DNA of 24,745 nt from a virus. Its lineage: Duplodnaviria > Heunggongvirae > Uroviricota > Caudoviricetes. The stretch lies in IMG/VR virus record IMGVR_UViG_3300017917_003727, one strand, 5' to 3'. Below the pieces are notes generated by a model, which was not told the DNA's origin, did no database searches, and saw only the letters and a program-made list of their open reading frames with translations. Shown in pieces: positions 1-15,849 of this stretch (the first letter of the stretch is position 1; each line of letters starts with the position of its first letter). Position numbers and translations under genes: made by a program.

Positions 1-81
1 GGTACTTCAGGTTCTTCAGGAACTAGCGGTACTTCAGGTTCTTCAGGAACTAGCGGTACTTCAGGTTCTTCAGGAACTAGC
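1..81 (+). repeat. 27-bp tandem repeat x3 (GGTACTTCAGGTTCTTCAGGAACTAGC) encoding GTSGSSGTS
   Basis: Exact copies at 1-27, 28-54 and 55-81; a degenerate 9-bp periodicity continues to about 162. Confidence 0.95.
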
Positions 82-831
82 GGTTCTTCAGGAACAAGTG
101 GTTCAAGCGGCTCTTCAGGAAGTTCAGGTAAATCAGGAACATCTGGTTCAAGTGGAACAAGTGGTGTTGTATCATCAGTGGCGACAGGATACGGATATCC
201 AATAGTTTATTTACCTGATAGTCAAATATTTGGATACTGTGAAAACATGTTCCAATACAATGGAGGAGGACTTGTTTTTGGAGCAACCCCAGATGCAACT
301 TTATCGGCAGATACTTTCATTAATACTGGTGTTGTAAGTCATTACCCAATAAGTTATAGTGATGGTGGTCTAACACCTTTAGCACAAGGTCAGGGTGATG
401 GTAGAATAATGAAAGGTATTACAAGCGGGACCTTAGCCGCAGCATCTCTTTGTTATATGACTACTACGGTTGGTGGTGGAATATATACAAATGTGGGTAG
501 ATGGGCTAACACAGACGCAGACGCACCTCAAAACTCAAGGGGATTATTAGGAGTAATACTTTCAGGTTCAACAGGAAATGACCAATTAAGAAATTTTGTG
601 GTTGACGGATTGGTTACAGTACCAACAAACTTAATTCAAAACAAACCAGCAACAGAAACAAACGCATTGGGTGTTCCAATATACATCAGCCCAACTGCAG
701 GTAATTTTGATGTGGTTGCACCATCCACATCAGGTCAAGTTGTTAGAATTGTTGGTCACGTTGTGGCGGTTTCCCAAGGTCAATGGTGGACAATACTATT
801 TAGACCTGATGGAACATGGTTAGAAATATAA
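1..831 (+). CDS. 5'-truncated collagen-like (Gly-X-Ser) repeat protein, probable virion fibre/decoration protein
   Basis: Frame 1 is open from base 1 into ORF 178..831, so the true start lies upstream of the window. Bases 1-162 encode 18 Gly-X-Y triplets (GTS/GSS/GKS). The C-terminal Gly-rich beta domain (WANTDADA...GLLG...G.V...IYISPTAG...APSTSGQVVRIVG) resembles phage capsid-decoration/fibre domains. TAA at 829-831. Confidence 0.75.
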   Translation, partial: GTSGSSGTSGTSGSSGTSGTSGSSGTSGSSGTSGSSGSSGSSGKSGTSGSSGTSGVVSSVATGYGYPIVYLPDSQIFGYCENMFQYNGGGLVFGATPDATLSADTFINTGVVSHYPISYSDGGLTPLAQGQGDGRIMKGITSGTLAAASLCYMTTTVGGGIYTNVGRWANTDADAPQNSRGLLGVILSGSTGNDQLRNFVVDGLVTVPTNLIQNKPATETNALGVPIYISPTAGNFDVVAPSTSGQVVRIVGHVVAVSQGQWWTILFRPDGTWLEI

Positions 832-836
832 TAATA

Positions 837-867
837 AAAAAGGTCGGACTAAAATTCCGACCTTTTT
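837..867. terminator. Bidirectional rho-independent terminator
   Basis: AAAAAGGTCGGA (837-848), 7-nt loop, TCCGACCTTTTT (856-867): a perfect 12-bp inverted repeat with A/T tracts on both sides, lying between convergent genes. Confidence 0.9.
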
Positions 868-918: not shown

Positions 919-3204
919 TCATAATCCTAAGATATTAAAAACTTGTAATGAAGTAATTGATTTTTGGCAAATATGTTGTAACTCTGTTCCTTTATAAACA
1001 GGACACCAATCCCAATCACCTGAATCAAACACATGTACTGGGTCATTCCAACATTTAATACAAACATCGTTGGTTATTTTTGTTAAGTTACTTGTAAATT
1101 CATGACCTTCTTGAACAAAACCATTAATCATATATGTATATTTTCCTAACGCCCAATTTATCCAAGATAAACCTGAACCTAATCCAATAAATTTATCCGC
1201 ATAATGTAAATAAGTTGCGACATCATCTAAAGGTCTCCCTGATATATTTTTAACACCATGCATGTGATACGGTTTTCTTGTTAAAACCACAACTTCATAA
1301 CCTAATTGTTTTATTAATTTACTTAAAGAGACCCAATTTTCATAAGACCATTCTTTACATCCCGCAGTTGCTTCAGGACCAAAAACAATATATTTTTCTT
1401 TTATTGGACGTTTACCAATTTTTAAATTTAAACCATAATTTTTTTCTTCAAACTCAAGACCTAATATATCTGTTGCTGTTTTTTGTAGGGGGATTAGGTT
1501 AACCTGATTTGGATAATAGTCAAATTTTTTCCATCCACCATTATCATCTCTAAACCAACCAATTCTATATACAACCTCACAAGTGGTTGAGCCACCTGGT
1601 AATAAAAATTCAATATCTTCGTAATCTTTTAAACCTTTAAACCAATCATTATTGAATGTACTTAATATTACTTTACAGTTGTGTTTTTTTGCAAAATCAA
1701 CAGCGTACGGTGCCCATGCAATTGTGTCACCAACAGACTTAGATTCAAATGATATTAATACTCTTTTACCATCTAATGACAATTCACTTTGTATTTCACC
1801 ATTCACTTTTATTTGCCAAGGTATGTAGTATTTTTTACCACAAGCGACCCACATATTATTAGTTATTTTGGCTGAGTGTAAAACCTCCTCAGTTTCTTTA
1901 TTTATAAATTCAACAAAATATTGTTGATAATCATCACCCAATATTTCAACACGAGGACCATCAAGATAAGTAACATTTATTGTGTTTTTTTTAGTTAATT
2001 TTTCAGTCCAAGGTTTTCTACTTATGAAATCATTTATTGTTTCCAAACCAATTTTAGCAACATTATCCCAATTAAATTTTTCATGAATTTCTTTTGATTC
2101 CAACAAACATTTATTTTTTATTTCATCATAAAATTCATATGAAAACCTCATTTTTTCAGATAAATCCTCAAAGTTCGGTTCATAATAGTTTCCAACATTA
2201 TCGTTAAAATGATTGTATGAACTTGCACTCACAGGTAACTCACCAATAATGTTTACAGGTATTCCTCTACCTTCGGCAAATTCTAATTGACCTGAACAAT
2301 TAGAATAAATTGATGGGACGCCACATGACATGGCCTCAATTAAAGGTAAATTCCAACCTTCGGAACGCGCACAAGATAAAAACACGTTACAAGATTTTAA
2401 AATATCAATATAATCTGTTCTTGATGGGAAATGTAAAACTTTGATTCTTTCATCATTCAAACCATAATACTCTAATCTTTCCTCAGTAGATTTAAAACCA
2501 TCATTAGAGAATGGATTATCAACTGATATGATTAAATCAACAGGTTCATTTTTATTAAAAGTCTTTAAAAAAGTTTCAATAATTTCTTTTGTCGATTTTC
2601 TATAGTCCCACCTACCCGCTAAGAAAAATTTAAATCTACCATCAGAAGTTAATTGGTGTTTTACATTTGGGTTAGGAAAAAAAACTGATGTATCAACACC
2701 TTCAGGAACTACTTTAATTTTATTTTCAGGATAACCTTGTTTTATTGTGACTTCTTTTTGCCATTTAGACGGAACCCACAACTCATCAAATTCCATTAAT
2801 TTATTGAAAAATTGTGATGGTTGTAATGTTGATTCCCAAACATTATAAGCAATTTTTGGTCCAATGTAATTGTCGTAAAAAATGTGGTGATTAGTTTCAC
2901 ATAACACAATATTTAAATCAGGAAAAAATTCTTTTGATTTATCAGGATAAATAGGAAAATCACTTCTTGTATTATCGGTATTCCACAATATTTGTTGATA
3001 TAACATTTTTCTATCAACGTCGTTAAAATAAGGCTCATTATCATGCGGGGTTTCATTATAACCTTTCCAAGAATTACCGATAGTAAAATTTCTTATTTTT
3101 ATGTCGGTATAATTAGATAATGCTCTAAAAAAATCTCTAGTATGTTGATTATATCCTGTTGTTCCAACATAAGAGCCATGAACAAAAATTTTAGGTTTTT
3201 TCAT
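919..3204 (-). CDS. Bifunctional glycosyltransferase: N-terminal GT4 (GT-B) fused to a C-terminal TibC/Aah-type (BAHT) autotransporter O-heptosyltransferase-like domain
   Basis: GT4 motifs: LWVPSKWQK, VVPEGVD, GRWDYRK, ARSEGWNLPLIEAMSCGVPSI. BAHT-like motifs: GPRVEI, KSVGDTIAWAPYA, CKEWSYENW, FIGLGSGLSWINWALG, and the four-Cys motif CIKCWN...DWDWCP...HICQKSI. Confidence 0.85.
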   Translation of the reverse strand: MKKPKIFVHGSYVGTTGYNQHTRDFFRALSNYTDIKIRNFTIGNSWKGYNETPHDNEPYFNDVDRKMLYQQILWNTDNTRSDFPIYPDKSKEFFPDLNIVLCETNHHIFYDNYIGPKIAYNVWESTLQPSQFFNKLMEFDELWVPSKWQKEVTIKQGYPENKIKVVPEGVDTSVFFPNPNVKHQLTSDGRFKFFLAGRWDYRKSTKEIIETFLKTFNKNEPVDLIISVDNPFSNDGFKSTEERLEYYGLNDERIKVLHFPSRTDYIDILKSCNVFLSCARSEGWNLPLIEAMSCGVPSIYSNCSGQLEFAEGRGIPVNIIGELPVSASSYNHFNDNVGNYYEPNFEDLSEKMRFSYEFYDEIKNKCLLESKEIHEKFNWDNVAKIGLETINDFISRKPWTEKLTKKNTINVTYLDGPRVEILGDDYQQYFVEFINKETEEVLHSAKITNNMWVACGKKYYIPWQIKVNGEIQSELSLDGKRVLISFESKSVGDTIAWAPYAVDFAKKHNCKVILSTFNNDWFKGLKDYEDIEFLLPGGSTTCEVVYRIGWFRDDNGGWKKFDYYPNQVNLIPLQKTATDILGLEFEEKNYGLNLKIGKRPIKEKYIVFGPEATAGCKEWSYENWVSLSKLIKQLGYEVVVLTRKPYHMHGVKNISGRPLDDVATYLHYADKFIGLGSGLSWINWALGKYTYMINGFVQEGHEFTSNLTKITNDVCIKCWNDPVHVFDSGDWDWCPVYKGTELQHICQKSITSLQVFNILGL

Positions 3205-3205
3205 A

Positions 3206-3238
3206 TTGAAAATATATTAAAAAACATTATATTTTCAA
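3206..3238. promoter_or_regulatory. 11-bp perfect inverted repeat filling a 37-bp divergent intergenic gap; probable back-to-back promoter elements or operator
   Basis: TTGAAAATATA (3206-3216), 11-nt spacer, TATATTTTCAA (3228-3238). Each arm places TATATTTT 4-6 nt before one of the two divergent ATGs (3204 on -, 3242 on +). Confidence 0.55.
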
Positions 3239-3241
3239 CAT

Positions 3242-3886
3242 ATGGCTAATGGAGTTTATAAAATAACTGAAGATTTTGAGAAAGTGTTATCTGACTACAC
3301 AGGGGCCCCTTATGTTGTTACAGTAGATAATCAATCAAACGCTTTGTTTTTGTCTTTATACTATGAAAAAAATATAAAAAAATCTATAACCCAAGACACT
3401 ATTACAATACCAAATAGGACTTATCCATCAGTTCCTTGTGAAATAATACATACAGGATTAAAAGTTAATTTTTTTGAAATTGAAGGTACTAAATTAAAAG
3501 GAGCTTACAAACTTCAAGGTAGTAATGTTTGGGATTCAGCATTGAGATTCACTGCGGATATGTATATCCCTAATTCACATATGTGTATTTCATTCACAGG
3601 TCCATATAAACATTTTAAATTAAGTAAGGGTGGTGCGATATTAACAGACAATCACGAAGCTTATTTGTGGTTTAAGAGAGCTCGTTATAGTGGTAGAAGA
3701 GAATGTTCATATCATGATGACTACTTTGATATGTTGGGTTGGAATTTTTATATGATGCCAGAACTCGCAACTAGAGGTTTATTGTTAATGAATCAATTTT
3801 ACAATATAGATGGTACAAAAAAATACAACGAGGATTTAGAATTACCATATCCTGACTTATCAAAATTTGAAATTTATAAAAAATAA
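3242..3886 (+). CDS. Compact DegT/DnrJ/EryC1/StrS-family PLP-dependent sugar aminotransferase
   Basis: Motifs: VTVDNQSNALFLSL, ITIPNRTYPSV, WDSA (PLP-binding Asp), SFTGPYKH...KGGAILTD (Schiff-base Lys region), GWNFYMMPELATRGL. Only 214 aa, much shorter than typical members (about 370 aa). Confidence 0.8.
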   Translation: MANGVYKITEDFEKVLSDYTGAPYVVTVDNQSNALFLSLYYEKNIKKSITQDTITIPNRTYPSVPCEIIHTGLKVNFFEIEGTKLKGAYKLQGSNVWDSALRFTADMYIPNSHMCISFTGPYKHFKLSKGGAILTDNHEAYLWFKRARYSGRRECSYHDDYFDMLGWNFYMMPELATRGLLLMNQFYNIDGTKKYNEDLELPYPDLSKFEIYKK

Positions 3887-3887
3887 T

Positions 3888-4430
3888 ATGTTTTACACAA
3901 AAGAAGAATTAAATAAAATAGGGTTTAAATCTATTGGTGAAAACGTTTTAATATCTGACAAAGCTTCAATATATGGTGCTAAAAATATTGAAATAGGTTC
4001 TAATGTTAGGGTTGATGATTTTTGTATTTTAAGTGCTGGTGAAGGAGGTATTAAAATTGGTAATTACATTCACATTGCTTGTTACGCTCATTTAATAGGT
4101 TCAGGTCAAATAATTGTCGATGACCACGCTCAAATATCTGGAAAAGTCTCAATATATTCATCATCTGACGATTTTTCGGGTGATTTTTTAGTTGGACCAA
4201 CAGTCCCAAAAGAATTTACTAATGTCAAAAATTTGACAGTTCATTTGAAAAAATATGTAGTTTTAGGGTGTAACACGGTTGTTTTACCTGGTGTCACAAT
4301 TGAAGAAGGTACCGCTGTTGGTGCTATGAGTTTAGTCAATAAATCTTTACCCGAATATTGTATATATGGTGGTAACCCAATAAAATTCTTGAAAGAAAGA
4401 ACTAAGGGGGTACAAAAATACGAAATATAA
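3888..4430 (+). CDS. vioB: VioB-like dTDP-4-amino-4,6-dideoxyhexose N-acyltransferase (hexapeptide left-handed beta-helix)
   Basis: GFKSIGENVLISDKASIYG...VRVDDFCILSAGEGGI...IYSSSDDFSG...LPGVTIEEGTAVGAMS closely matches my recollection of E. coli O7 VioB. ATG 3888 directly after the aminotransferase stop is preferred over the track's TTG at 3867. Confidence 0.75.
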   Translation: MFYTKEELNKIGFKSIGENVLISDKASIYGAKNIEIGSNVRVDDFCILSAGEGGIKIGNYIHIACYAHLIGSGQIIVDDHAQISGKVSIYSSSDDFSGDFLVGPTVPKEFTNVKNLTVHLKKYVVLGCNTVVLPGVTIEEGTAVGAMSLVNKSLPEYCIYGGNPIKFLKERTKGVQKYEI

Positions 4431-4455
4431 AATTGTCATATATATTTTAAAAAAA

Positions 4456-5442
4456 ATGGAATTACCATACGAAGAAGGAAAATTTAATTTTATTGTTGAT
4501 TTATTTATACCATTTGAAAAAATGTTAACAGGTGGTTTAATGGTTTTGCATAAATTAGCCTACAAATTGGCGGAAAAAGGACACAATGTTTATATTTTTT
4601 GCAAACCTGAATATCCACATCCAAACATAAAAGTAATACAAAGCAGTTTAACTTTTGACGAAAGTGGATTTATACAACAATATAATTGGGAAGGGTTCAC
4701 GTTCCCAATTGAAAATACAATATCAATATATCCTCAAATAACAAGATACAATCCATTTAACACTAATCATGTTGCTAGGTGGATATTATATGACACTCAA
4801 AAAGAAATAGAAGACACTTATGGCGAAAATGACGTATATTTTAATTATTTGAATTTTAAAACGTTTAAATTAGTCCCCCAAAGAAAACTAACCGTACTTG
4901 ATTATAAGTTAGATTGGTTGTATGTTACGAACACAGGAAAAAGAAAAACTTTTTGTCATTTAATACACAAAAATACACCACCAAACGGAGAAAAAATATT
5001 CAAAGACTTAAATTCTTTTGATTTGACCGATTGGATGAGCAAAGGCGTTACTGATGGATACAACCCTTATGATTATTTAAGAGACACATTCAATCAATAT
5101 GAATATTTTTTAACCTATGACCAAAAAACATATTTTAGTGTTATGGCAGCATTATGCGGGTGTAAAACAATCATATTAAATCCAGGAACACCATACGAGT
5201 TTGTACCGAATGCAAACACTAACCTAAAATTAAAAGATAACATTACACCAACCGAATTTAGATTAAATAATTATTTACAACAATTTGGTATAGCGTATGG
5301 TTGGGATGATATAAAATGGGCTAAAGATACTCTACCTTTAGTTAGGGATTATATTGAAGATTTAGAGACTATTGACGACAAAACTGTTGATAATTTCATA
5401 AATTATTGGAAGGAAAAAAATTTAAAAAATGATAACATATAG
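4456..5442 (+). CDS. Putative GT-B glycosyltransferase (WavQ-like)
   Basis: N-terminal TGGLMVLHKLAYKLAEKGHNV, IYPQIT..NP...VARWILY, and C-terminal FNQYEYFLTYDQKTYFSVMAALCGCKTII pattern. Confidence 0.55.
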   Translation: MELPYEEGKFNFIVDLFIPFEKMLTGGLMVLHKLAYKLAEKGHNVYIFCKPEYPHPNIKVIQSSLTFDESGFIQQYNWEGFTFPIENTISIYPQITRYNPFNTNHVARWILYDTQKEIEDTYGENDVYFNYLNFKTFKLVPQRKLTVLDYKLDWLYVTNTGKRKTFCHLIHKNTPPNGEKIFKDLNSFDLTDWMSKGVTDGYNPYDYLRDTFNQYEYFLTYDQKTYFSVMAALCGCKTIILNPGTPYEFVPNANTNLKLKDNITPTEFRLNNYLQQFGIAYGWDDIKWAKDTLPLVRDYIEDLETIDDKTVDNFINYWKEKNLKNDNI

Positions 5443-6379
5443 AGGACTTTCAGAAGATAAAAAAAGTATTTTTTATTCACCAACACAAGAGGGAACAACC
5501 CAAATTGAAATAAAAGTTTATGACTCATATACTGATGGTTTTATTTTTCACAGTGAAATTGACGTGACACATGGTTGGAATTACTATACATATATTCCCG
5601 CAGCATGGAAAAACAGGAATGTATACATATATAATAAAAATACCAAAGAATTATTAGCACCGTTTGTAATTGATGGGACAAATTCATTAGAAAATTATGA
5701 TAGAGAATTATATCTAAAAAAATTGTTTAAAATTGAAAAAAATGAAAGTCACCAAGCTGGTATTCATGATGTTTTACGAGAACATTTATTTGATAGACAG
5801 TATAAAGACATTGTTGATGTTGAAAATGGTGATGTAGTTTTTGATGTTGGTTTTAATTTTGGTATATTTTCTTTGGGCGCGTTAAACAATGGTGCCTCTA
5901 AAATTTATGGTTTTGAACCAAATAAAAACATATATAATATAATTAAAGAAATTTATCCTGATAAAGATAAAGTACAGATATATAATGTTGCTGTTTCAGA
6001 TAAAAATGAAATATTAACATTTTATGAGGGAGAAAATACACTAGCGTCAAGTCTAGAAAATAACGTTGGTGATTATAAAGAATCATACGAGGTTGAATGT
6101 ATCAATTTTTATGATTTTATATTGAAAAATGAAATTAAAAAAATTGATTTTTTAAAGATAGATTGTGAAGGTGCTGAATATCAAATATTCGAGTCTATTC
6201 CCGATGAATATTTTTCAACAATAAATAAAATCCATGTTGAGTTTCACTTTAATGAGGGTGAAAAAATTAAATCATTAATCAATAAATTGGAAAAAAATAA
6301 TTTTGAATGGTGGTTTGAGCGAGATAGAGGAATGTTAAGCGACATTGGTTTAATATTTGCAAAGAAAATAAAAACATGA
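5429..6379 (+). CDS. FkbM-family (Methyltransf_21) SAM-dependent methyltransferase with an N-terminal beta-rich extension
   Basis: VVFDVGFNFGIFS, IYGFEPN, NVAVSDK, IDFLKIDCEGAEY, IHVEFH. Confidence 0.9.
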   Translation: MITYRGLSEDKKSIFYSPTQEGTTQIEIKVYDSYTDGFIFHSEIDVTHGWNYYTYIPAAWKNRNVYIYNKNTKELLAPFVIDGTNSLENYDRELYLKKLFKIEKNESHQAGIHDVLREHLFDRQYKDIVDVENGDVVFDVGFNFGIFSLGALNNGASKIYGFEPNKNIYNIIKEIYPDKDKVQIYNVAVSDKNEILTFYEGENTLASSLENNVGDYKESYEVECINFYDFILKNEIKKIDFLKIDCEGAEYQIFESIPDEYFSTINKIHVEFHFNEGEKIKSLINKLEKNNFEWWFERDRGMLSDIGLIFAKKIKT

Positions 6380-8247
6380 AATTGAAATTAATACAATTAT
6401 GGATTGGTAAAATTCCTGATTATTTTTGGTTTCACTACGAAACGACTAAAAATTTAAAAGACGTTGAATTTTTAATTTTTACTGATGATGATTTAGTAGT
6501 CGATTCTCCAAATTATAAAGTAGTACCAATAACAAAAGATGAAATAGAAAATAAAATTTCATCAATGCTTAATTACAATTACAAAATCATTAATTCTAAA
6601 AAAATTAATGATTTAAAATCCTGTTTAGGTGAATTATTTGAAGATTATTTAACTGATTGCAATTTTTTCGGTTTTTATGATATAGATACATTATTTGGTG
6701 ATTTCCAAAAATGGATTTTACCATATACGAGTGAATATGATGTAATATCTTTTGCGGACAGTATCCACCATGATAGGTTGTGCGGTCCATTAACTATTTT
6801 TAGAAATACCTATGATAACCTTAGATTATATAGAAATAGATTTGATGAGTTTTTAAATACATTAAATCATGATAGTATCGATGCTTTTGAGGAGCATCAA
6901 CTATCACAAATAGTTTTAGAAAAATGTAAGGTAAAATTAATTTATGATTCTACAAACTGTGAAACACATAACGGTGGAAAAAACACGTATGAGGCTTATT
7001 GGAGTGGGGGTAAGGTTTTTGTAAACAACGAGGAAAAACTACTCTATCATTTTTATAGAAAAAACCATACAAAATTTCAAAAAATAGGTAATACAATAAG
7101 CGTTCACTATGATAAAAAAATTATTGACGATTTTTTATGGGTTGTCCATTTTTCAGAAAAATATGAAACATTATTACCGTATTTGATTGACTCAATTAAA
7201 AAATACTCAAACAGAAAATGTGTTTTATATTCAATAAATTACAGTCCAAATTTTTTATTTAAAACACAATTTGAAAGCGAACAATTTATTTTTAGGAGAA
7301 TTGATATGGAGCCTGGACCATTAGATAATAGAGGGCGAGACAGTAGAATTATGAATTCAAAACCACTAATTCTAATGGATGCAATCAAATCATTTCCAAA
7401 TAAAAAATTTGTTCACATTGATACCGACATTTATTTAACAACTAATGCTGATGATATTATAAAATACTTTAATAGACTTGAAGATTACCCATTAATGAAT
7501 TCGCACATTCATGATGTTATGTATCTTTCAGGTATTAGACATGACGAAGAATGGACTAGTTCACTACATGTTTTATTGGATGCAATGAAAGAAGAAAAAC
7601 AACCAATATTCCCAAGAAGAAAATGTAATGTTATTTTATTTGATGAACGTAGTTATTGGTTTTTTGAGGAACAAATGTTAATATATAATCAATATAAAGA
7701 TAGTGGAATACCAGGAATATTAGCAATTTTTGATGAGGACACCGCAAATGCGTTATTAGCAAAATATCAATTTAAAAATTCTCTACCGTTAATTGATATT
7801 GAAGAGAGTCATAATTTAAATATTGAAAAAATACACAACTACAGTTATAATATGACAGGCACATCTCCTTGGGTTGAACTTCCAAAAAACATTAACGATT
7901 TTTTAGTTTTTCATGGTTTTAAATCAATTTCAGATTATCAACAAATACAAAGAGATTATGGTTTATCTACTTTAGATTGTGAAGAGTTTGTTATAACATA
8001 TACAAATAATTTATTACTTTTTGAGAAAAATTCATTCATGACAACAAAGAAAGTGGCCCAAGTTGTTGATTTTATTGTAAACGATTTAGATGGTAATGAA
8101 CTTTATAGATTAAGTAATCAAAGATTTTACGATTATTGGTATTTTTATTTATCTGATATAATTTTAGAACCTAAAAAATATTCTATTAAGATAGTTGAAA
8201 CTAACAGTAATAAATGTATCTTTAACGACATATTAGAAATAAAATGA
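6376..8247 (+). CDS. Two-domain putative glycosyltransferase (DUF6625-like domain plus GT-A DxD domain) with a C-terminal beta-rich module
   Basis: N-domain: IQLWIGKIPDYF...FFGFYDIDTLFGD...GPLTIFRN. Second domain: NSKP...FVHIDTDIYL. ATGA overlap with the previous gene. Confidence 0.65.
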   Translation: MKLKLIQLWIGKIPDYFWFHYETTKNLKDVEFLIFTDDDLVVDSPNYKVVPITKDEIENKISSMLNYNYKIINSKKINDLKSCLGELFEDYLTDCNFFGFYDIDTLFGDFQKWILPYTSEYDVISFADSIHHDRLCGPLTIFRNTYDNLRLYRNRFDEFLNTLNHDSIDAFEEHQLSQIVLEKCKVKLIYDSTNCETHNGGKNTYEAYWSGGKVFVNNEEKLLYHFYRKNHTKFQKIGNTISVHYDKKIIDDFLWVVHFSEKYETLLPYLIDSIKKYSNRKCVLYSINYSPNFLFKTQFESEQFIFRRIDMEPGPLDNRGRDSRIMNSKPLILMDAIKSFPNKKFVHIDTDIYLTTNADDIIKYFNRLEDYPLMNSHIHDVMYLSGIRHDEEWTSSLHVLLDAMKEEKQPIFPRRKCNVILFDERSYWFFEEQMLIYNQYKDSGIPGILAIFDEDTANALLAKYQFKNSLPLIDIEESHNLNIEKIHNYSYNMTGTSPWVELPKNINDFLVFHGFKSISDYQQIQRDYGLSTLDCEEFVITYTNNLLLFEKNSFMTTKKVAQVVDFIVNDLDGNELYRLSNQRFYDYWYFYLSDIILEPKKYSIKIVETNSNKCIFNDILEIK

Positions 8248-9170
8248 AAAAAGTCGCATTAATAAGTTCTTTTTGTGATACAGAAGAAAAAATATATGTT
8301 TTAGAAAAAAATATTAAAACTGTTAAAAATTTAGGTATTGATGTAATATTAATCAGTCCAATTTTTTTACCTGAAAGAATAACATCAATTTGTGACTACT
8401 ATTTTCAGACTAAAGATAATTTAGTTTTAGATTGGCCATTACGCTCAATGTTTATATGGAGGGAATTATATATTAACAATTTAAGACATAAAATTACAAA
8501 AACATATGGTGATTATGGTTGGGCGGGATTAAACCAAGTAAAACAATTAAGTGAAATTGCTTTATTATTTGAATATGAACAATTTTTTCATATGATATAC
8601 GATTTAAAAATTGATGATAACGTATTAAACGGTTTAAACTCTGAACGTATTTGTAATGTATATCCATCAAAAAGAGATAATGACGTATGGAAAGTCGGAT
8701 TACATTTTATGGTATTTGATAGAAAGAATTTAAGAAGATTCGTATCGAACATTCATCTTGACAGTTATCTTTCTTTAAAAGGTGCGGACGCTTTTGTTTG
8801 GTTACATAATTTACAAAACATATTTCCATATGAAAATGAGGAAACACCTGTTGAAGATGAAATATATTATTATGATGGGTATGATTTTTTTAATTATTCA
8901 CCAATCAAAGAACAACCATTTTTTATTGTTAAAGATGATGAATTATTGGACAGTGTAAAACTATTATTCTATTCTGTTAGAGAAACAAAACCAATACAAA
9001 TTATTGTGGATGATAATATAATAAATGATTTCACATATGAGTATCATCTAATAGATTTAGGGTTTAATAAATTAAATCCAAAAAAAGTAAAAATATTGTA
9101 CGATAACAATGAATACGATATTACGGAAACAATTAATAAAGTAAAACACAACACATTTAGGAAAGATTGA
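8244..9170 (+). CDS. Hypothetical protein, probable GT-A-like glycosyltransferase
   Basis: Rossmann-like start (KVALISSFC...GIDVILISP...CDYYF...DN), FFHMIYD at the position where a DxD-like motif is expected, and ATGA coupling within the GT operon. Confidence 0.45.
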
Positions 9171-9171
9171 T

Positions 9172-9720
9172 ATGATTGAAAACATACATCTATGGTCTGC
9201 CGATAGAGGAACCTATTTTGATAGAAATGTTAACATAATTTCTTGGAGTGACCAATACAAAATAAACACAGGAAAATACTGTTCAATCGGAAGAGATTGT
9301 AATTTCTTTTTACACGCCAATCACAGAGTTGATTGGATAACAACAAGTTCACAATTGTGGGGTCCTGTAACACCTGAGGTTGCTGACTTACACATGCAAA
9401 TGGGTCATCCTGAATCTAAAGGTGATATTGTAATTGGTAATGATGTTTGGATTGGGGCTAAATCTACAATAATGTCTGGTGTTAAAATTGGTGATGGGGT
9501 TGTTATCGGTTCAGGTTCTGTAGTTGCAAAAGATGTTCCACCTTATGCGATTGTTGTTGGAAATCCCGCCAAAGTAATTAAATACCGTTTTGAAGAACAA
9601 CAGATTAAAGACCTATTAGAGATTGCTTGGTGGAATTGGCCCGAACACAAAATTAAAGAAGAAGCAATGTTATTGTGGAGTAAAGACATAAATTATTTTA
9701 TAGACAAACATAAAAAATGA
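9172..9720 (+). CDS. CatB/Vat-related hexapeptide O-acetyltransferase, probably acting on a sugar
   Basis: [61 protein letters not shown]. Confidence 0.85.
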
Positions 9721-10559
9721 TAAACATAACTTATAATTCAGAAGGTATAAGAGTCGATGTTGGTGAAATTAGTAAATACAACAATAACAATCCCTTAAGA
9801 CTCAGAATATTAAAACATGTCAGTGGTGAAGAACAATGGGTTACAAACCTTAATGACTTTTGGTTTGCAACATTTCCAAATACAGAGATGTTCGATGTTC
9901 AAATAACAGACTCAAGAGGTGTTGTTGTGTATGAAAAATTTTGGGATGTATTTGAACACGGAAACCATTTTTATAAATCACTTTGGTTATATAATAAAAA
10001 AGTCTTATCAAATGGTAAGTTACCAAAAGGTTTGGTAATTGGTACACATGATGGTGAGTTTGGTGAGTGGGTTCCTATTGTTTTAAGAAGAGAAGCAAAT
10101 GTTGTTTTGGTTGAGGCATCTGACGCTCAATTTAATAAGTTATCAAATAACTACAAAAATAATTCATTAGTAAAACCAATAAAAAATTTAATAACACCTA
10201 ATGGTGGTGATGTTGAGTTCTTTGAAGGTGGTGCTGGTTACACAAATACTGTTGTTGAAAAGGTGATAAGACATTGGGAAACCGAAGAAGTACATTCAAC
10301 ACTAAAACCGTCAATCAGTATTACTGATTTAATATTAAATGAGTGTGGTGGAAGTATTGATTGGTTACACTTAGATGTGGAAGGTTTGGATGCAAAATTG
10401 ATTATGGGTATTGACGAAAATAAAGTTAAATTACCTGATTTTATAATTTTTGAGGATTATAATTTATCTTCAGAAGAAAAAGAACAAATATATACATATC
10501 TACATGATAGAGGATATAAAACTAAATCCGAAGGTGGAATCTGTGAGGCAATAAGATGA
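9717..10559 (+). CDS. Divergent FkbM-family methyltransferase with an N-terminal beta-rich module
   Basis: [44 protein letters not shown] overlap. Confidence 0.75.
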
Positions 10560-10945
10560 TTAGTAATACAAAAATATATATAGACCAAAGTCCCGTTCAT
10601 GGATGGGGAGTTTTTGCAAAACAAGATATTAAAAGTGGGGAATTAATTGAAGAATGTCCCGTTTTAACTTTACCAATATCAAAAGGGGAGGTAACACCAT
10701 TATTAATTGATTATAGATTCAATTGGCCACAAGGTACCGAATGGGAAGAACAAGTAATTGCCTTGGGGTACGGTTCATTGTATAATCACAGTAATACGCC
10801 AAACGCAATATGGGTGTCAAGTGACACAAAAAAGTGTTTTATATTCTACGCAACAAGAGACATTAAAGAAGGTGAGGAAATATTTGTTTGGTATGGTGAT
10901 GAAAATTATTGGAACGATGGAAGAACACACACAAATCTTATCTGA
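10556..10945 (+). CDS. Stand-alone SET-domain protein-lysine methyltransferase
   Basis: SPVHGWGVFAKQDIKSGELIEE, GYGSLYNHSNTPNA (NHS motif), ATRDIKEGEEIFVWYG. Confidence 0.92.
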   Translation: MISNTKIYIDQSPVHGWGVFAKQDIKSGELIEECPVLTLPISKGEVTPLLIDYRFNWPQGTEWEEQVIALGYGSLYNHSNTPNAIWVSSDTKKCFIFYATRDIKEGEEIFVWYGDENYWNDGRTHTNLI

Positions 10946-14583: not shown

Positions 14584-15849
14584 ATGAAAACCAAAAAAAA
14601 CTCAAAAATTTTTGTTCAAATTGCATCCTATAGGGACCCACAATTAAGACACACAATTGCAGACATGATTAAAAACGCCAAAAGACCTGAAAAACTAGTT
14701 ATTGGTGTTGCAAGACAGTTTAATGAAGAAGATGGTTTTGATGACTTATCTGATTATCAAGATGACGAAAGATTTAGAATATTAAATATTCCTTATAGTG
14801 AAGCTGAGGGAGTTTGTTGGGCCCGAAATTTAGTACAACAATTATATCAAGACGAACAGTATACATTACAAATTGATTCTCATATGAGATTTGCCCCTAA
14901 TTGGGATGAAGAGATGATAAACATGATAAAACAACTACAAAAGAAAGGATACAAAAAACCACTTTTGACAGGTTATGTTTCATCATTTGACCCTGATAAT
15001 GACCCAGCAGGTAGAGTACAGGAACCTTGGAGAATGGCTTTTGACAGGTTTATTCCTGAAGGTGCTGTGTTCTTCTTACCTGAAACCATTCCGAATTGGA
15101 GAGAATTAAAAGAACCTGTACCCGCCAGATTTTACTCGGCACACTATTGTTTTACTTTGGGAGAGTTTTCAAAAGAAGTACAACACAATCCTGAATATTA
15201 TTTCCACGGAGAAGAAATTTCTATTGCCGCCAGAGCGTACACTTGGGGATATGACTTGTTTCACCCACATAAGGTTTTAATTTGGCACGAATATACTCGT
15301 AAAGGTAGAACAAAACAGTGGGACGATGATAAATTGTGGGTTTCAAGAAATAACCACTCTCATTTAACAAATAGAAAACTTTTTGGTATGGATGGAGAAA
15401 CTCAAGAAGGACATGATGGTATGTTTGGTTTTGGACCAATTAGAAGTCTTAGAGATTATGAAAAATACTCAGGTTTATTATTTGAAAAAAGAGCGGTACA
15501 ACAATACACATTAGATAAACAATATCCACCAAATCCATATGAATTCAAAAACGAAGATGAGTGGAAAAATAGTTTTGCAACCATATTCAAACACTGTATT
15601 GACGTAGGATATTCTTCAGTACCTGAGAAAGATTATGATTTTTGGGTTGTTGCTTTCCACGATGAAAATGATGAAACTATTTTTAGAAAAGATGCCGACA
15701 GAGGTGAAATCCAAAGAATGATGAATGACCCTGACGGATATTGTAAAATATGGAGAGATTTTCAAACAACACACAAACCCAAATATTGGGTTGTGTGGCC
15801 ACACTCAGAATCTAAAGGATGGTGTGAAAGATTAACAGGACAATTATAA
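14584..15849 (+). CDS. GT60-family (PF11397 GlcNAc; Gnt1-like) polypeptide GlcNAc-transferase with a C-terminal extension
   Basis: IFVQIASYRDPQL, GVCWARNLVQQLY, LQIDSHMRFAPNWD, KPLLTGY, YFHGEEISIAARAYTWGYDLFHP, WHEY. Confidence 0.85.
   Translation: MKTKKNSKIFVQIASYRDPQLRHTIADMIKNAKRPEKLVIGVARQFNEEDGFDDLSDYQDDERFRILNIPYSEAEGVCWARNLVQQLYQDEQYTLQIDSHMRFAPNWDEEMINMIKQLQKKGYKKPLLTGYVSSFDPDNDPAGRVQEPWRMAFDRFIPEGAVFFLPETIPNWRELKEPVPARFYSAHYCFTLGEFSKEVQHNPEYYFHGEEISIAARAYTWGYDLFHPHKVLIWHEYTRKGRTKQWDDDKLWVSRNNHSHLTNRKLFGMDGETQEGHDGMFGFGPIRSLRDYEKYSGLLFEKRAVQQYTLDKQYPPNPYEFKNEDEWKNSFATIFKHCIDVGYSSVPEKDYDFWVVAFHDENDETIFRKDADRGEIQRMMNDPDGYCKIWRDFQTTHKPKYWVVWPHSESKGWCERLTGQL

What the first reader, a model, noticed from the sequence alone, without database searches (positions are those of the whole stretch)
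919..3204. GT4 fused to a TibC/Aah-type heptosyltransferase with intact four-Cys metal motif, in an apparent phage
Seen: the C-terminal ~350 aa carry GDTIAWAPY, a conserved Lys in CKEW, and C-x2-C...C...C (CIKC, WCP, HIC; ~960-1065). Established: BAHT enzymes (TibC, Aah) are iron-binding oligomers that transfer heptose from ADP-heptose to Ser of autotransporter passenger domains. No autotransporter and no ADP-heptose synthesis genes are visible in the window. Inference: the enzyme has been repurposed for a virion acceptor and possibly another donor sugar, with the fused GT4 adding a second sugar.
Basis: partly seen in the sequence, partly recalled or inferred. Interest (0 to 1): 0.75.

Follow-up and report, generated by a model that had tools for sequence, protein, structure and literature searches.

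The report
Phage TibC-like enzyme beside collagen-like fibre
A large aquatic T4-like phage encodes a two-part sugar-transferring enzyme whose second half is a true relative of the E. coli adhesin-glycosylating enzymes TibC/Aah. Gene-neighbourhood comparison suggests it sugar-coats the phage's own proline-free, serine-packed collagen-like fibre; no experiment has tested this.

Summary
ORF 919-3204 (-) encodes a 761-aa soluble protein with an N-terminal GT4 domain carrying an EX7E motif. Its C-terminal domain scores above the curated cut-off of the TibC/Aah model (220.8 vs 200 bits). An AlphaFold model of that domain superposes on TibC at TM 0.88, against about 0.5 for LPS heptosyltransferases.

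The catalytic Asp, the Thr/Lys phosphate binders, the heptose-contact Trp and all four metal-binding Cys are conserved. The adenine-contact Arg286 is Val, and the beta-hairpin thumb that builds the TibC dodecamer is missing.

The fusion is conserved in about 45 viral contigs. Some of these carry the T4 gp23 capsid gene.

New here: proline-free Gly-Ser/Thr-Ser collagen-like genes lie beside the enzyme gene in the window, in 15 of 33 related phage loci and in 20 of 35 bacterial loci of the thumb-less or short-thumb, or Arg-less, branches. Classical Arg+thumb enzymes sit beside autotransporters instead (32 of 45). The likely acceptor is therefore the collagen-like fibre.

The donor sugar is unresolved. 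One relative encodes ADP-heptose genes, while a 98%-complete relative and Microcystis phage Mel-JY01 do not.

The scan's earlier notes reach the same reading on other phage DNA. Those notes are not independent evidence.

The parts
919..3204 (-). Whole gene: 761-aa GT4 + TibC-like fusion (P0001); stop codon at 919-921
   Evidence: Homologous fusions of 756-782 aa occur in about 45 IMG/VR loci at 53-69% (TibC half) and 56-73% (GT4 half) identity.
2020..3204 (-). GT4 (GT-B, retaining-type) domain, aa 1-395, with EX7E motif at aa 282-290 (nt 2335-2361)
   Evidence: PF00534 49.5 bits, PF13692 40.7 bits, phrog_2170 107.7 bits. Motif located.
1744..1986 (-). TibC-type N-terminal beta-barrel, aa 407-487
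   Evidence: PF21129 TibC_1st at aa 413-467, 24.1 bits, E 3.7e-5, below its 27-bit cut-off. The AF2 model shows eight strands here at pLDDT 97-98. This region is included in the TM 0.88 superposition on TibC.
922..1743 (-). TibC-type catalytic domain, aa 488-761: Asp493 (base), Thr613/Lys617 (beta-phosphate), Val662 (position of TibC Arg286), Gly676 (position of Pro300), Trp681; thumb hairpin deleted around aa 646-653
967..1062 (-). Four-Cys metal ('iron-finger') motif: Cys715, Cys718, Cys734, Cys746
   Evidence: These align with TibC Cys339/342/358/370. They are invariant in 30 of 30 phage homologues and present in 136 of 141 cluster representatives.
1..831 (+). 3' part of a collagen-like fibre gene: 19 proline-free Gly-Ser/Thr-Ser triplets (open at the window edge) followed by a non-repeat C-terminal domain of about 220 aa; candidate acceptor
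   Evidence: PF01391 35.4 bits; PHROG tail-fibre families; triplet count; conserved linkage with the enzyme gene.
837..867 (.). Bidirectional intrinsic-terminator hairpin (12-bp stem, T runs on both strands) shared by the convergent fibre and enzyme genes
3205..3241 (.). 37-nt divergent intergenic region holding a palindromic pair of sigma-70-like promoters (TTGAAA-16-TATATT on both strands). It separates the enzyme gene from the plus-strand glycosylation operon.
   Evidence: consensus match only
3242..10559 (+). Divergent operon of sugar-modifying and glycan-building enzymes: short DegT-type aminotransferase, two hexapeptide acyltransferases, two FkbM methyltransferases, DUF6625 and two unassigned proteins. 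It is syntenic with the relatives.
   Evidence: Pfam; synteny in 6-18 related loci.

Best explanation
The gene encodes a soluble, cytoplasmic, bifunctional protein O-glycosyltransferase of a large T4-like aquatic phage.

Shown:
- The C-terminal domain is a genuine TibC/Aah-type enzyme. It has the beta-barrel, an inverting GT-B core with the Asp base and the Thr/Lys/Trp donor contacts, and a Cys4 metal finger.
- It is fused to an apparently competent GT4 domain.

Inferred:
- The TibC-like domain puts the first sugar on Ser/Thr of the phage's own proline-free Gly-Ser/Thr-Ser collagen-like fibre, encoded tail-to-tail next door. This happens before or during virion assembly.
- The GT4 domain adds a second sugar.
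- The divergent operon of aminotransferase, acyltransferases and FkbM methyltransferases supplies or trims further sugars.
- The many regularly spaced Ser residues of the repeat would be hyperglycosylated, in parallel with TibC acting on the repeats of TibA.

Open points:
- The donor may be ADP-heptose taken from the host (about even odds). It may instead be another nucleotide sugar, because the adenine-contact Arg is lost.
- The enzyme probably does not form the TibC dodecamer ring, because the ring-forming thumb is absent.
For: Enzyme identity:
- TIGR04414 scores 220.8 bits against a cut-off of 200.
- TibC is matched at E 1.8e-36 over chain residues 13-383.
- The AF2 model has pLDDT 94.2. 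All 21 top PDB matches are TibC chains at TMq 0.83-0.88, while WaaC and WaaF reach only 0.42-0.50.
- Asp, Thr/Ser, Lys, Trp and the four Cys are conserved in all 30 phage homologues. Their roles are taken from PMC4358343.

Phage setting:
- The fusion and its divergent operon are syntenic in IMG/VR contigs.
- Three of five long relatives carry gp23.
- In a 173-kb contig the two halves are adjacent separate genes lying between gp23, a gp13-like gene and the tail sheath gene.

Acceptor:
- In the window the collagen-like gene ends 88 nt from the enzyme gene's stop, and the two share a terminator.
- Ser/Thr-rich, Pro-free GXY ORFs lie within 10 kb in 15 of 33 non-redundant phage loci, often 34-1,100 nt downstream and convergent. 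One is also present near the homologue in huge phage LR756501.
- In whole contigs totalling 761 kb there are only 7 GXY ORFs. One is 94 kb from the enzyme gene. The others are 43 nt to about 13 kb away, counting one across the ends of G001 if that contig is circularly permuted.
- In bacterial genomes, classical enzymes (Arg286 plus full thumb) neighbour AIDA-like autotransporters in 32 of 45 loci and S/T-rich GXY ORFs in 0 of 45. The other branches neighbour S/T-rich GXY ORFs in 20 of 35 loci and autotransporters in 2 of 35.

Protein rather than lipid-linked glycosylation:
- The protein has no transmembrane segment.
- No flippase, polymerase or initiating transferase was found in the window. 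The island does hold a GT60/Gnt1-like polypeptide GlcNAc-transferase (PF11397, 225.6 bits).

Heptose:
- Relative G004 encodes an HldE-like kinase (133 bits), an adenylyltransferase (104 bits) and an HldD-like epimerase (177 bits) side by side.
Against: - No glycan on any fibre has been shown. The acceptor rests on gene linkage only.
- The linkage is largely a split between clades. Only 3 phylogenetically independent contrasts exist, so the Fisher p of about 1e-9 overstates the evidence.
- 18 of 33 phage loci show no collagen-like ORF within the DNA held. The split-gene relative L052 shows none within 10 kb either.
- Six-frame GXY frames were not checked for expression.
- TibC Arg286, whose Ala mutant abolished or largely diminished TibC activity, is Val here and is never Arg in the phage clade.
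- The heptose genes occur in only 1 of 31 relatives' records. They are absent from a 98%-complete relative and from the complete Mel-JY01 genome. LPS of Microcystis, the host genus of Mel-JY01, lacks heptose (PMC4515613).
- The G004 heptose-like genes score below their equivalog cut-offs.
Confidence: 0.6

Rival explanations
1. The enzyme glycosylates other phage structural proteins rather than the collagen-like repeat. Candidates are the Pro/Thr-rich 932-aa protein, the LamG or discoidin fibre proteins, the SprB-repeat protein, or capsid or tail proteins. On this reading the collagen-like gene is merely a neighbour in a fibre and host-range island.
For: The island is interleaved with several Ser/Thr/Pro-rich structural-like genes. 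In L052 the split enzyme pair sits in the head-neck-tail module with no collagen-like gene within 10 kb. More than half of the related loci show no collagen-like ORF in the DNA held.
Against: None of those other proteins is conserved next to the enzyme gene (0-3 loci each). The collagen-like class recurs across phages at 40-69% identity and across bacterial phyla.
Confidence: 0.17
2. The enzyme is an auxiliary 'host surface' gene. During infection it modifies host LPS, capsule or another lipid-linked glycan, for example to block superinfection. This is the conventional reading of cyanophage LPS gene clusters.
For: The nearest non-TibC folds are LPS heptosyltransferases, and PF01075 matches at 25.9 bits. 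PHROG files the GT4 half under 'moron, auxiliary metabolic gene and host takeover'. Sigma-70-like promoters rather than late-type ones precede the gene. Papers on cyanophages read such clusters as cell-wall modification (PMC12801897).
Against: The match to TibC is far closer than to WaaC or WaaF: TM 0.88 against about 0.5, and TIGR02193 scores 22.7 bits against a cut-off of 185. The only characterised members of the family act on proteins. The window holds no Und-P transferase, flippase, polymerase or ligase. This reading would not explain the linkage to collagen-like genes in phages and bacteria.
Confidence: 0.13
3. It is a classical BAHT acting on a host or phage autotransporter adhesin with ADP-heptose, exactly as TibC and Aah do.
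For: It scores above the TIGR04414 equivalog cut-off. JGI annotation names many homologues 'autotransporter strand-loop-strand O-heptosyltransferase'.
Against: No autotransporter beta-domain is present in the window, in three long relatives or in Mel-JY01. The thumb and Arg286, which mark the autotransporter-linked branch, are absent. The window's domain lies in a 100%-supported clade of 37 rows, of which 29 are viral contigs, 6 are metagenome representatives, one is the window itself and one is a MAG contig.
Confidence: 0.03

Closest known systems
TibC (ETEC H10407) and Aah (DAEC 2787), bacterial autotransporter heptosyltransferases; BAHT family, TIGR04414, PDB 4RAP/4RB4 (PMC4358343)
   Same: The domain order is the same: beta-barrel, then GT-B core, then Cys4 finger. 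The catalytic Asp110, Thr226/Lys230, Trp305 and all four Cys are conserved. Sequence identity is 26-28% at TM 0.88. A small residue (Gly) sits at the stereoselectivity position, as with Ser294 of Aah. The protein is soluble and cytoplasmic. The presumed target is a long regular repeat rich in Ser.
   Different: It is fused to a GT4 domain. Arg286, the adenine N1 contact, is Val. The beta-hairpin thumb (Phe265/Val266) that links dimers into the dodecamer is deleted. No autotransporter is nearby. The neighbour is a proline-free collagen-like fibre gene. It is encoded by a phage. Donor and metal are untested.
Bacterial TibC-like enzymes lacking the full thumb or Arg286 (Methylococcales, Arenicellales, Burkholderiales and other MAGs and genomes; uncharacterised)
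   Same: They share the shortened thumb region and the four Cys. They are also linked to short Ser/Thr-rich, Pro-free GXY genes, in 20 of 35 loci.
   Different: Identity is 30-39%. They are mostly stand-alone proteins of about 375-400 aa without GT4. Some keep Arg286. Their collagen-like neighbours are small (110-530 aa) rather than giant fibres.
Microcystis phage Mel-JY01 gene product WWT39291.1, annotated 'methyltransferase FkbM'
   Same: It has GT4 at the N-terminus and a TibC-like domain at the C-terminus, at 47% and 40% identity respectively. A Gly-Ser/Thr-Ser repeat frame lies just upstream. It comes from an isolated phage with a known host.
   Different: It is 1,226 aa long, with a middle segment of about 450 aa between the two domains. 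The record's annotation does not mention the TibC-like domain and calls ORFs on the other strand over the repeat.
LPS heptosyltransferases WaaC/WaaF (GT9, PF01075)
   Same: They share the GT-B fold and the ADP-heptose-binding C-lobe motif region. PF01075 matches aa 601-689.
   Different: TM is only 0.42-0.50 at 12-15% identity. They have no barrel and no Cys4 finger. TIGR02193 scores 22.7 bits against a cut-off of 185.
Mycobacteriophage virion O-glycosylation (Freeman et al. 2023, cited in PMC12619734) and glycosylated collagen-like BclA of Bacillus anthracis (the latter from my own knowledge)
   Same: These are precedents for phage-encoded glycosyltransferases decorating virion proteins, and for O-glycosylated bacterial collagen-like Gly-X-Thr repeats.
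   Different: They involve unrelated enzyme families and different acceptor sites (capsid and tail-tube C-termini; Gly-Pro-Thr repeats).

Membership tests
BAHT / TIGR04414 (TibC, Aah) | Scores above the curated equivalog cut-off of TIGR04414 | tested here: met
   220.8 bits against a cut-off of 200; aa 407-758 cover model positions 10-370 of 374.
BAHT / TIGR04414 (TibC, Aah) | TibC protomer fold: N-terminal flattened beta-barrel packed on a GT-B catalytic core | tested here: met
   The AF2 model has pLDDT 94.2 and eight N-terminal strands. Foldseek ranks TibC chains 1-21 at TMq 0.83-0.88 and E down to 2.7e-31; GT9 enzymes follow at TM about 0.5.
BAHT / TIGR04414 (TibC, Aah) | Catalytic base Asp110 plus donor contacts Thr226, Lys230 and Trp305 | tested here: met
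   These correspond to Asp493, Thr613, Lys617 and Trp681. They are invariant in 30 phage homologues.
BAHT / TIGR04414 (TibC, Aah) | Arg286 contacting adenine N1 (basis of ADP specificity; the Ala mutant abolished or largely diminished TibC activity) | tested here: not met
   The position is Val662 here. In 30 phage homologues it is V, I, S, T or L, never Arg. It is Arg in 3 of 3 autotransporter-linked references and in 33 of 141 cluster representatives.
BAHT / TIGR04414 (TibC, Aah) | Four-Cys iron finger (Cys339/342/358/370) | tested here: met
   Cys715, 718, 734 and 746 align with the four TibC Cys. Whether the metal is Fe or Zn cannot be told from sequence.
BAHT / TIGR04414 (TibC, Aah) | Beta-hairpin thumb and ring-shaped dodecamer | tested here: not met
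   The TibC thumb segment holding Phe265/Val266 falls in a 9-residue gap. The region is 11 residues long here and 20 in Aah. The oligomeric state itself is not testable with these tools.
BAHT / TIGR04414 (TibC, Aah) | Adjacent autotransporter substrate with strand-loop-strand repeats | tested here: not met
   The window's proteins give no autotransporter or target-repeat match. PF03797 is absent from G001, G002, G003 and Mel-JY01. Classical enzymes have such a neighbour in 32 of 45 loci.
BAHT / TIGR04414 (TibC, Aah) | ADP-heptose as donor | not testable with these tools
   Indirect evidence points both ways. HldE/HldD-like genes are present in relative G004. They are absent from 30 other records, including a 98%-complete one, and from Mel-JY01.
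GT4 (Glycos_transf_1, retaining GT-B) | Pfam GT4 C-terminal domain above cut-off, with the EX7E motif | tested here: met
   PF00534 scores 49.5 bits against a cut-off of 26.4, and PF13692 scores 40.7 against 27. The motif is E282-x7-E290.
GT9 LPS heptosyltransferases (WaaC/WaaF) | Full-length match to the LPS heptosyltransferase models and fold | tested here: not met
   TIGR02193 scores 22.7 bits against a cut-off of 185.3. PF01075 matches only aa 601-689. TM is 0.42-0.50.

The most novel reading that the evidence does not exclude
TibC-like transferases lacking the full thumb may form a widespread, undescribed system in phages and bacteria. It would hyper-O-glycosylate proline-free Gly-Ser/Thr-Ser collagen-like repeats, in giant phage fibres of up to about 3,000 aa. 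The sugars, rather than Pro/Hyp, would stabilise or shield the triple helix. The autotransporter-specific BAHTs of enteric pathogens would then be one specialised offshoot of this older family.
Probability: 0.45. Interest if true: 0.8.

Novelty: new variant of a known kind. Interest (0 to 1): 0.65.

Why it matters
BAHT enzymes are known only as virulence-associated modifiers of enterobacterial autotransporters. This gene belongs to a much larger set of relatives: 1,288 cluster representatives at E ≤ 0.001 in 1.8 billion proteins. One branch is common in large aquatic phages and sits beside giant proline-free collagen-like fibre genes.

If the fibre is the substrate, three things follow:
- It would be a new kind of virion glycosylation.
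- It would give a rationale for how Pro-free collagen repeats fold.
- It would provide a new acceptor class for a structurally well-understood enzyme.

The hypothesis can be tested directly, because a relative (Microcystis phage Mel-JY01) is in culture and the proteins are soluble. Glycan-coated fibres would also bear on phage host range and on how phages evade host or grazer recognition.

Tried and rejected
- Finding the window's own contig: a 50-nt exact search found nothing in viral contigs or metagenome contigs. Megablast against GenBank phages found nothing. No whole genome is held. The rest of this genome therefore could not be searched for gmh/hld genes.
- Homodimer prediction of the TibC-like domain, two copies with alignment A1, returned no verdict. 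It is not used either way.
  - An HMM of the barrel finds nothing significant elsewhere in the window.
  - Profile-profile comparison gives at most 25% probability, for the N-terminus of the FkbM protein at 9717-10559.
  - An AF2 model of that protein shows a seven-strand N-terminal beta module. Whole-chain Foldseek returns only methyltransferases.
  - The question is unresolved and not supported by sequence.
- Mel-JY01's 639-aa 'cytidylyltransferase like protein' as an HldE candidate: only a marginal PF01467 match and no NCBIfam match. Rejected.
- Phylogenetically independent contrasts for the neighbour association: only 3 pairs, so no test is possible.
- Literature: searches for phage TibC-like enzymes, Mel-JY01 and glycosylated collagen-like phage fibres found no paper on this.
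Full report
**1. What is in the sequence**

ORF 919-3204 on the minus strand has an ATG start and encodes 761 aa. No 19-residue window is hydrophobic enough for a membrane span; the maximum Kyte-Doolittle mean is 0.88.
- GDTIAWAPY at aa 492-500
- CKEW at aa 616-619
- CIKC at aa 715-718
- WCP at aa 733-735
- HIC at aa 744-746, which puts the Cys cluster at nt 967-1062

The gene is convergent with a plus-strand gene that ends at 831. The two share a 12-bp-stem hairpin at 837-867 flanked by T runs on both strands. Upstream, only 37 nt separate its start from a divergent plus-strand operon. That spacer is a palindrome carrying TTGAAA-16-TATATT on both strands. These are consensus matches only.

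**2. The two domains**

The N-terminal half is GT4:
- PF00534 scores 49.5 bits and PF13692 scores 40.7 bits.
- phrog_2170 scores 107.7 bits over aa 91-390.
- An EX7E motif lies at aa 282-290.

The C-terminal half (aa 407-758) matches TIGR04414, the Aah/TibC equivalog model, at 220.8 bits against a cut-off of 200. It matches the TibC crystal-structure sequences at E 1.8e-36 over chain residues 13-383.

An AlphaFold2 model of aa 400-761, built with 33 aligned homologues, has mean pLDDT 94.2 and an eight-strand N-terminal barrel. Foldseek ranks TibC chains 1-21 at TMq 0.83-0.88, with E down to 2.7e-31. The next hits are GT9 LPS heptosyltransferases at TM 0.42-0.51.

**3. Residue-level comparison with TibC**

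The TibC paper (PMC4358343) names these residues:
- Asp110 is the catalytic base.
- Thr226 and Lys230 bind the beta-phosphate.
- Arg286 contacts adenine N1.
- Trp305 contacts heptose O4.
- Pro300 (Ser294 in Aah) determines D,D- versus L,D-heptose selectivity.
- Cys339/342/358/370 bind iron.
- A beta-hairpin thumb (Phe265/Val266) joins dimers into the dodecamer.

From the alignments, the phage protein has Asp493, Thr613, Lys617, Trp681 and Cys715/718/734/746 at the matching positions. It has Val662 in place of Arg286 and Gly676 in place of Pro300. The thumb segment falls in a 9-residue gap.

Across 30 non-redundant phage homologues, the Asp, Thr, Lys, Trp and four Cys are invariant. The Arg286 position is V, I, S, T or L and never Arg. 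The Pro300 position is Gly or Ser.

The catalytic machinery and the metal site are therefore intact. The adenine contact and the ring-forming element are not.

**4. It is a phage gene, and the fusion is a conserved family**

The window itself has no hallmark gene. No whole genome is held for it and its own contig could not be found.

The TibC-like domain finds 50 IMG/VR loci. In about 45 of them the same GT4 + TibC-like fusion of 756-782 aa is present. The divergent operon of the window is syntenic in them.

Three of five long relatives, including a 295-kb contig rated 98% complete, carry the T4-type capsid gene gp23.

In a 173-kb metagenomic contig the two halves are adjacent, overlapping, separate genes of 358 and 363 aa. 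They lie between gp23, a gp13-like gene and the tail sheath gene.

More distant homologues occur in isolated Microcystis phage Mel-JY01 and in three 636-735-kb huge phages:
- The Mel-JY01 protein is 1,226 aa, runs GT4 - middle segment - TibC-like, and is annotated only as 'methyltransferase FkbM'.
- The huge-phage homologues and Mel-JY01 were found; details are.

In a tree of 175 domains the window falls in a 100%-supported clade of 37 rows. Of these, 29 are viral contigs, 6 are metagenome representatives, one is the window itself and one is a MAG contig.

The wider family is large:
- 1,288 cluster representatives match at E ≤ 0.001 among 1.84 billion proteins.
- At least 578 matches occur in bacterial species genomes.
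- Of 50 sampled multidomain representatives, 22 carry GT4 and 10 carry FkbM.
- JGI's automatic annotation already names many of them after TIGR04414.

No paper in the searchable library discusses such enzymes in phages.

**5. The likely acceptor**

The gene convergent with the enzyme gene (1-831, open at the window edge) encodes 19 proline-free Gly-Ser/Thr-Ser triplets followed by a non-repeat C-terminal domain of about 220 aa. It matches the collagen Pfam model and PHROG tail-fibre families.

I scanned all related loci for runs of eight or more GXY triplets. Ser/Thr-rich, Pro-free collagen-like ORFs lie in 15 of 33 non-redundant phage loci. They reach 894 triplets in one ORF and up to 3,034 aa in length. 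Many lie 34-1,100 nt downstream of the enzyme gene and convergent with it, as in the window. The same holds for Mel-JY01 and for huge phage LR756501.

As a control I read four long contigs in full, 761 kb in all:

| Contig | Length | GXY ORFs | Position relative to the enzyme gene |
|---|---|---|---|
| G004 | 145 kb | 1 | 43 nt away |
| G003 | 190 kb | 1 | 3.1 kb away |
| G005 | 130 kb | 3 | two are about 4 kb and 13 kb away, the third is 94 kb away |
| G001 | 295 kb | 2 | at the two contig ends: one 9 kb away, the other about 11 kb away only if the contig is circularly permuted; probably one gene |

I then sorted 80 bacterial loci by enzyme subtype:

| Subtype | Loci | AIDA-like autotransporter within 6 kb | Ser/Thr-rich GXY ORF within 6 kb |
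|---|---|---|---|
| Classical (Arg286 + 20-residue thumb) | 45 | 32 | 0 |
| Other branches (short or missing thumb, or no Arg286) | 35 | 2 | 20 |

Fisher p is about 1e-9 for each contrast.

Caveat: the subtypes are largely separate clades. Only three phylogenetically independent contrasts exist, so this is a clade-level association rather than many independent events. The linkage nevertheless persists from 30% to 69% identity and across phages and several bacterial phyla.

I reached this reading. Only did I see that the scan's earlier notes reach the same reading on other phage DNA: 84 notes hold the search words, in at least 68 genomes, and the eight shown all read it this way. Those are AI notes, not independent evidence.

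**6. Protein glycosylation rather than envelope glycans**

- The enzyme is soluble.
- The only characterised family members glycosylate proteins in the cytoplasm.
- No Und-P transferase, flippase, polymerase or ligase was detected in the window.
- The island also holds a GT60/Gnt1-like polypeptide GlcNAc-transferase, PF11397 at 225.6 bits.
- In relative L010, prolyl-hydroxylase-like 2OG oxygenases are present, one fused to GT2.

**7. Donor sugar: unresolved**

For heptose:
- The domain passes the family model's cut-off.
- The heptose O4 contact (Trp) and the phosphate binders are conserved.
- The 300 position holds a small residue, as in Aah, which accepts both heptose epimers.
- Relative G004 encodes, side by side, an HldE-like kinase (133 bits), an adenylyltransferase (104 bits, better than the TagD model at 70 bits) and an HldD-like epimerase (177 bits). 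All three score below their equivalog cut-offs.

Against heptose:
- Arg286 is lost. Its Ala mutant abolished or largely diminished TibC activity.
- Only 1 of 31 relatives' records has the kinase-like gene.
- The 98%-complete G001 lacks gmhA and both rfaE domains.
- The complete Mel-JY01 genome lacks them too. LPS of Microcystis aeruginosa, a species of its host's genus, lacks heptose (PMC4515613).
- The window's own sugar genes (short DegT aminotransferase, acyltransferases, FkbM methyltransferases) point to other sugars.

I put heptose at about even odds.

**8. Oligomer and metal**

The four Cys argue for a structural metal site. Whether it binds Fe or Zn cannot be told from sequence. Without the thumb, a TibC-type ring is unlikely. 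A homodimer prediction gave no verdict and is not used.

**9. Verdict**

- The enzyme is a true TibC-type protein glycosyltransferase in a phage, fused to GT4.
- It is most likely aimed at a virion component.
- It is not a repurposed autotransporter enzyme. It belongs to a separate branch linked to collagen-like repeats.
- The best candidate acceptor is the adjacent Gly-Ser/Thr-Ser fibre.
- Donor, metal and oligomer remain to be measured.

I rate it a new variant of a known kind, of considerable interest because it is directly testable.

Noticed in passing
L010:11080-11976 (+); also L007, L009, L011, L017/L018, L026, L037, L046, L048, L049, L050: Many relatives carry a second TibC-like paralogue of about 298 aa without the barrel, directly downstream of the fusion gene. 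It is about 29-31% identical to aa 81-358 of the domain. In L010 it is followed by a DUF6165 gene. The window lacks this paralogue; the collagen-like gene follows the fusion directly.
   Followed up: partly
L053:1-1878 (-) = G004:C1:40546-42423: Relative G004 has an operon of an HldD-like epimerase (177 bits), an HldE-like heptose-7-P kinase (133 bits, a short 246-aa ORF with a possible disruption at its N-terminus) and an adenylyltransferase (104 bits). No gmhA was found. Only 1 of 31 relatives' records has this operon.
   Followed up: partly
window 14584-15849 (+); L010:14816-16675 (-) and L010:18523-19107 (-): The window holds a GT60/Gnt1-like polypeptide GlcNAc-transferase (PF11397, 225.6 bits). 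Relative L010 has prolyl-hydroxylase-like 2OG-Fe(II) oxygenases, one fused to GT2. This hints at a second, hydroxyproline- or Thr-directed glycosylation of the Pro/Thr-rich proteins.
   Followed up: no
window 23110-24744 (+): This Ser/Thr-rich structural-like protein carries SprB repeats (PF13573, 39.1 bits), a repeat of Bacteroidota gliding adhesins. It is a weak hint that the host is a member of the Bacteroidota.
   Followed up: no
window 3242-3886 (+): This DegT-type aminotransferase is only 214 aa long; Pfam matches just profile positions 24-96 of 360. The short form is conserved at 76-81% identity in 10 related loci, so it is not a recent truncation.
   Followed up: partly
window 10556-10945 (+): A stand-alone 129-aa SET-domain protein (PF00856, 70.4 bits) sits between the enzyme operon and the LamG fibre genes. 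It is also present in L051 and L047.
   Followed up: no
window 9717-10559 (+) and 5429-6379 (+): The FkbM methyltransferases carry an N-terminal beta module of about 75-130 aa. In the AF2 model of 9717-10556 it forms seven strands at aa 2-74. Its likeness to the TibC barrel is not supported by HMM search or hhalign (at most 25% probability) and was not resolved by structure search.
   Followed up: partly
L001:2-3049 (PP395634.1, Mel-JY01): A 1,016-aa open frame with about 200 Gly-Ser/Thr-Ser triplets lies just upstream of the fusion gene. The GenBank record instead calls ORFs on the opposite strand there, which is possibly a misannotation of a collagen-like fibre gene.
   Followed up: no
window 3205-3241: The divergent intergenic spacer is a near-perfect palindrome that places identical sigma-70-like -35/-10 boxes on both strands. 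It may be a shared regulatory site for the enzyme gene and the sugar operon.
   Followed up: no
window 20087-22885 (+): This 932-aa protein has repeated Cys-containing modules separated by long Thr-Pro/Ser-Val-Thr-Pro linkers. It has no Pfam match and only a match to phrog_15511. Homologues occur in L021, L025 and L046. It is another possible glycosylation target.
   Followed up: no
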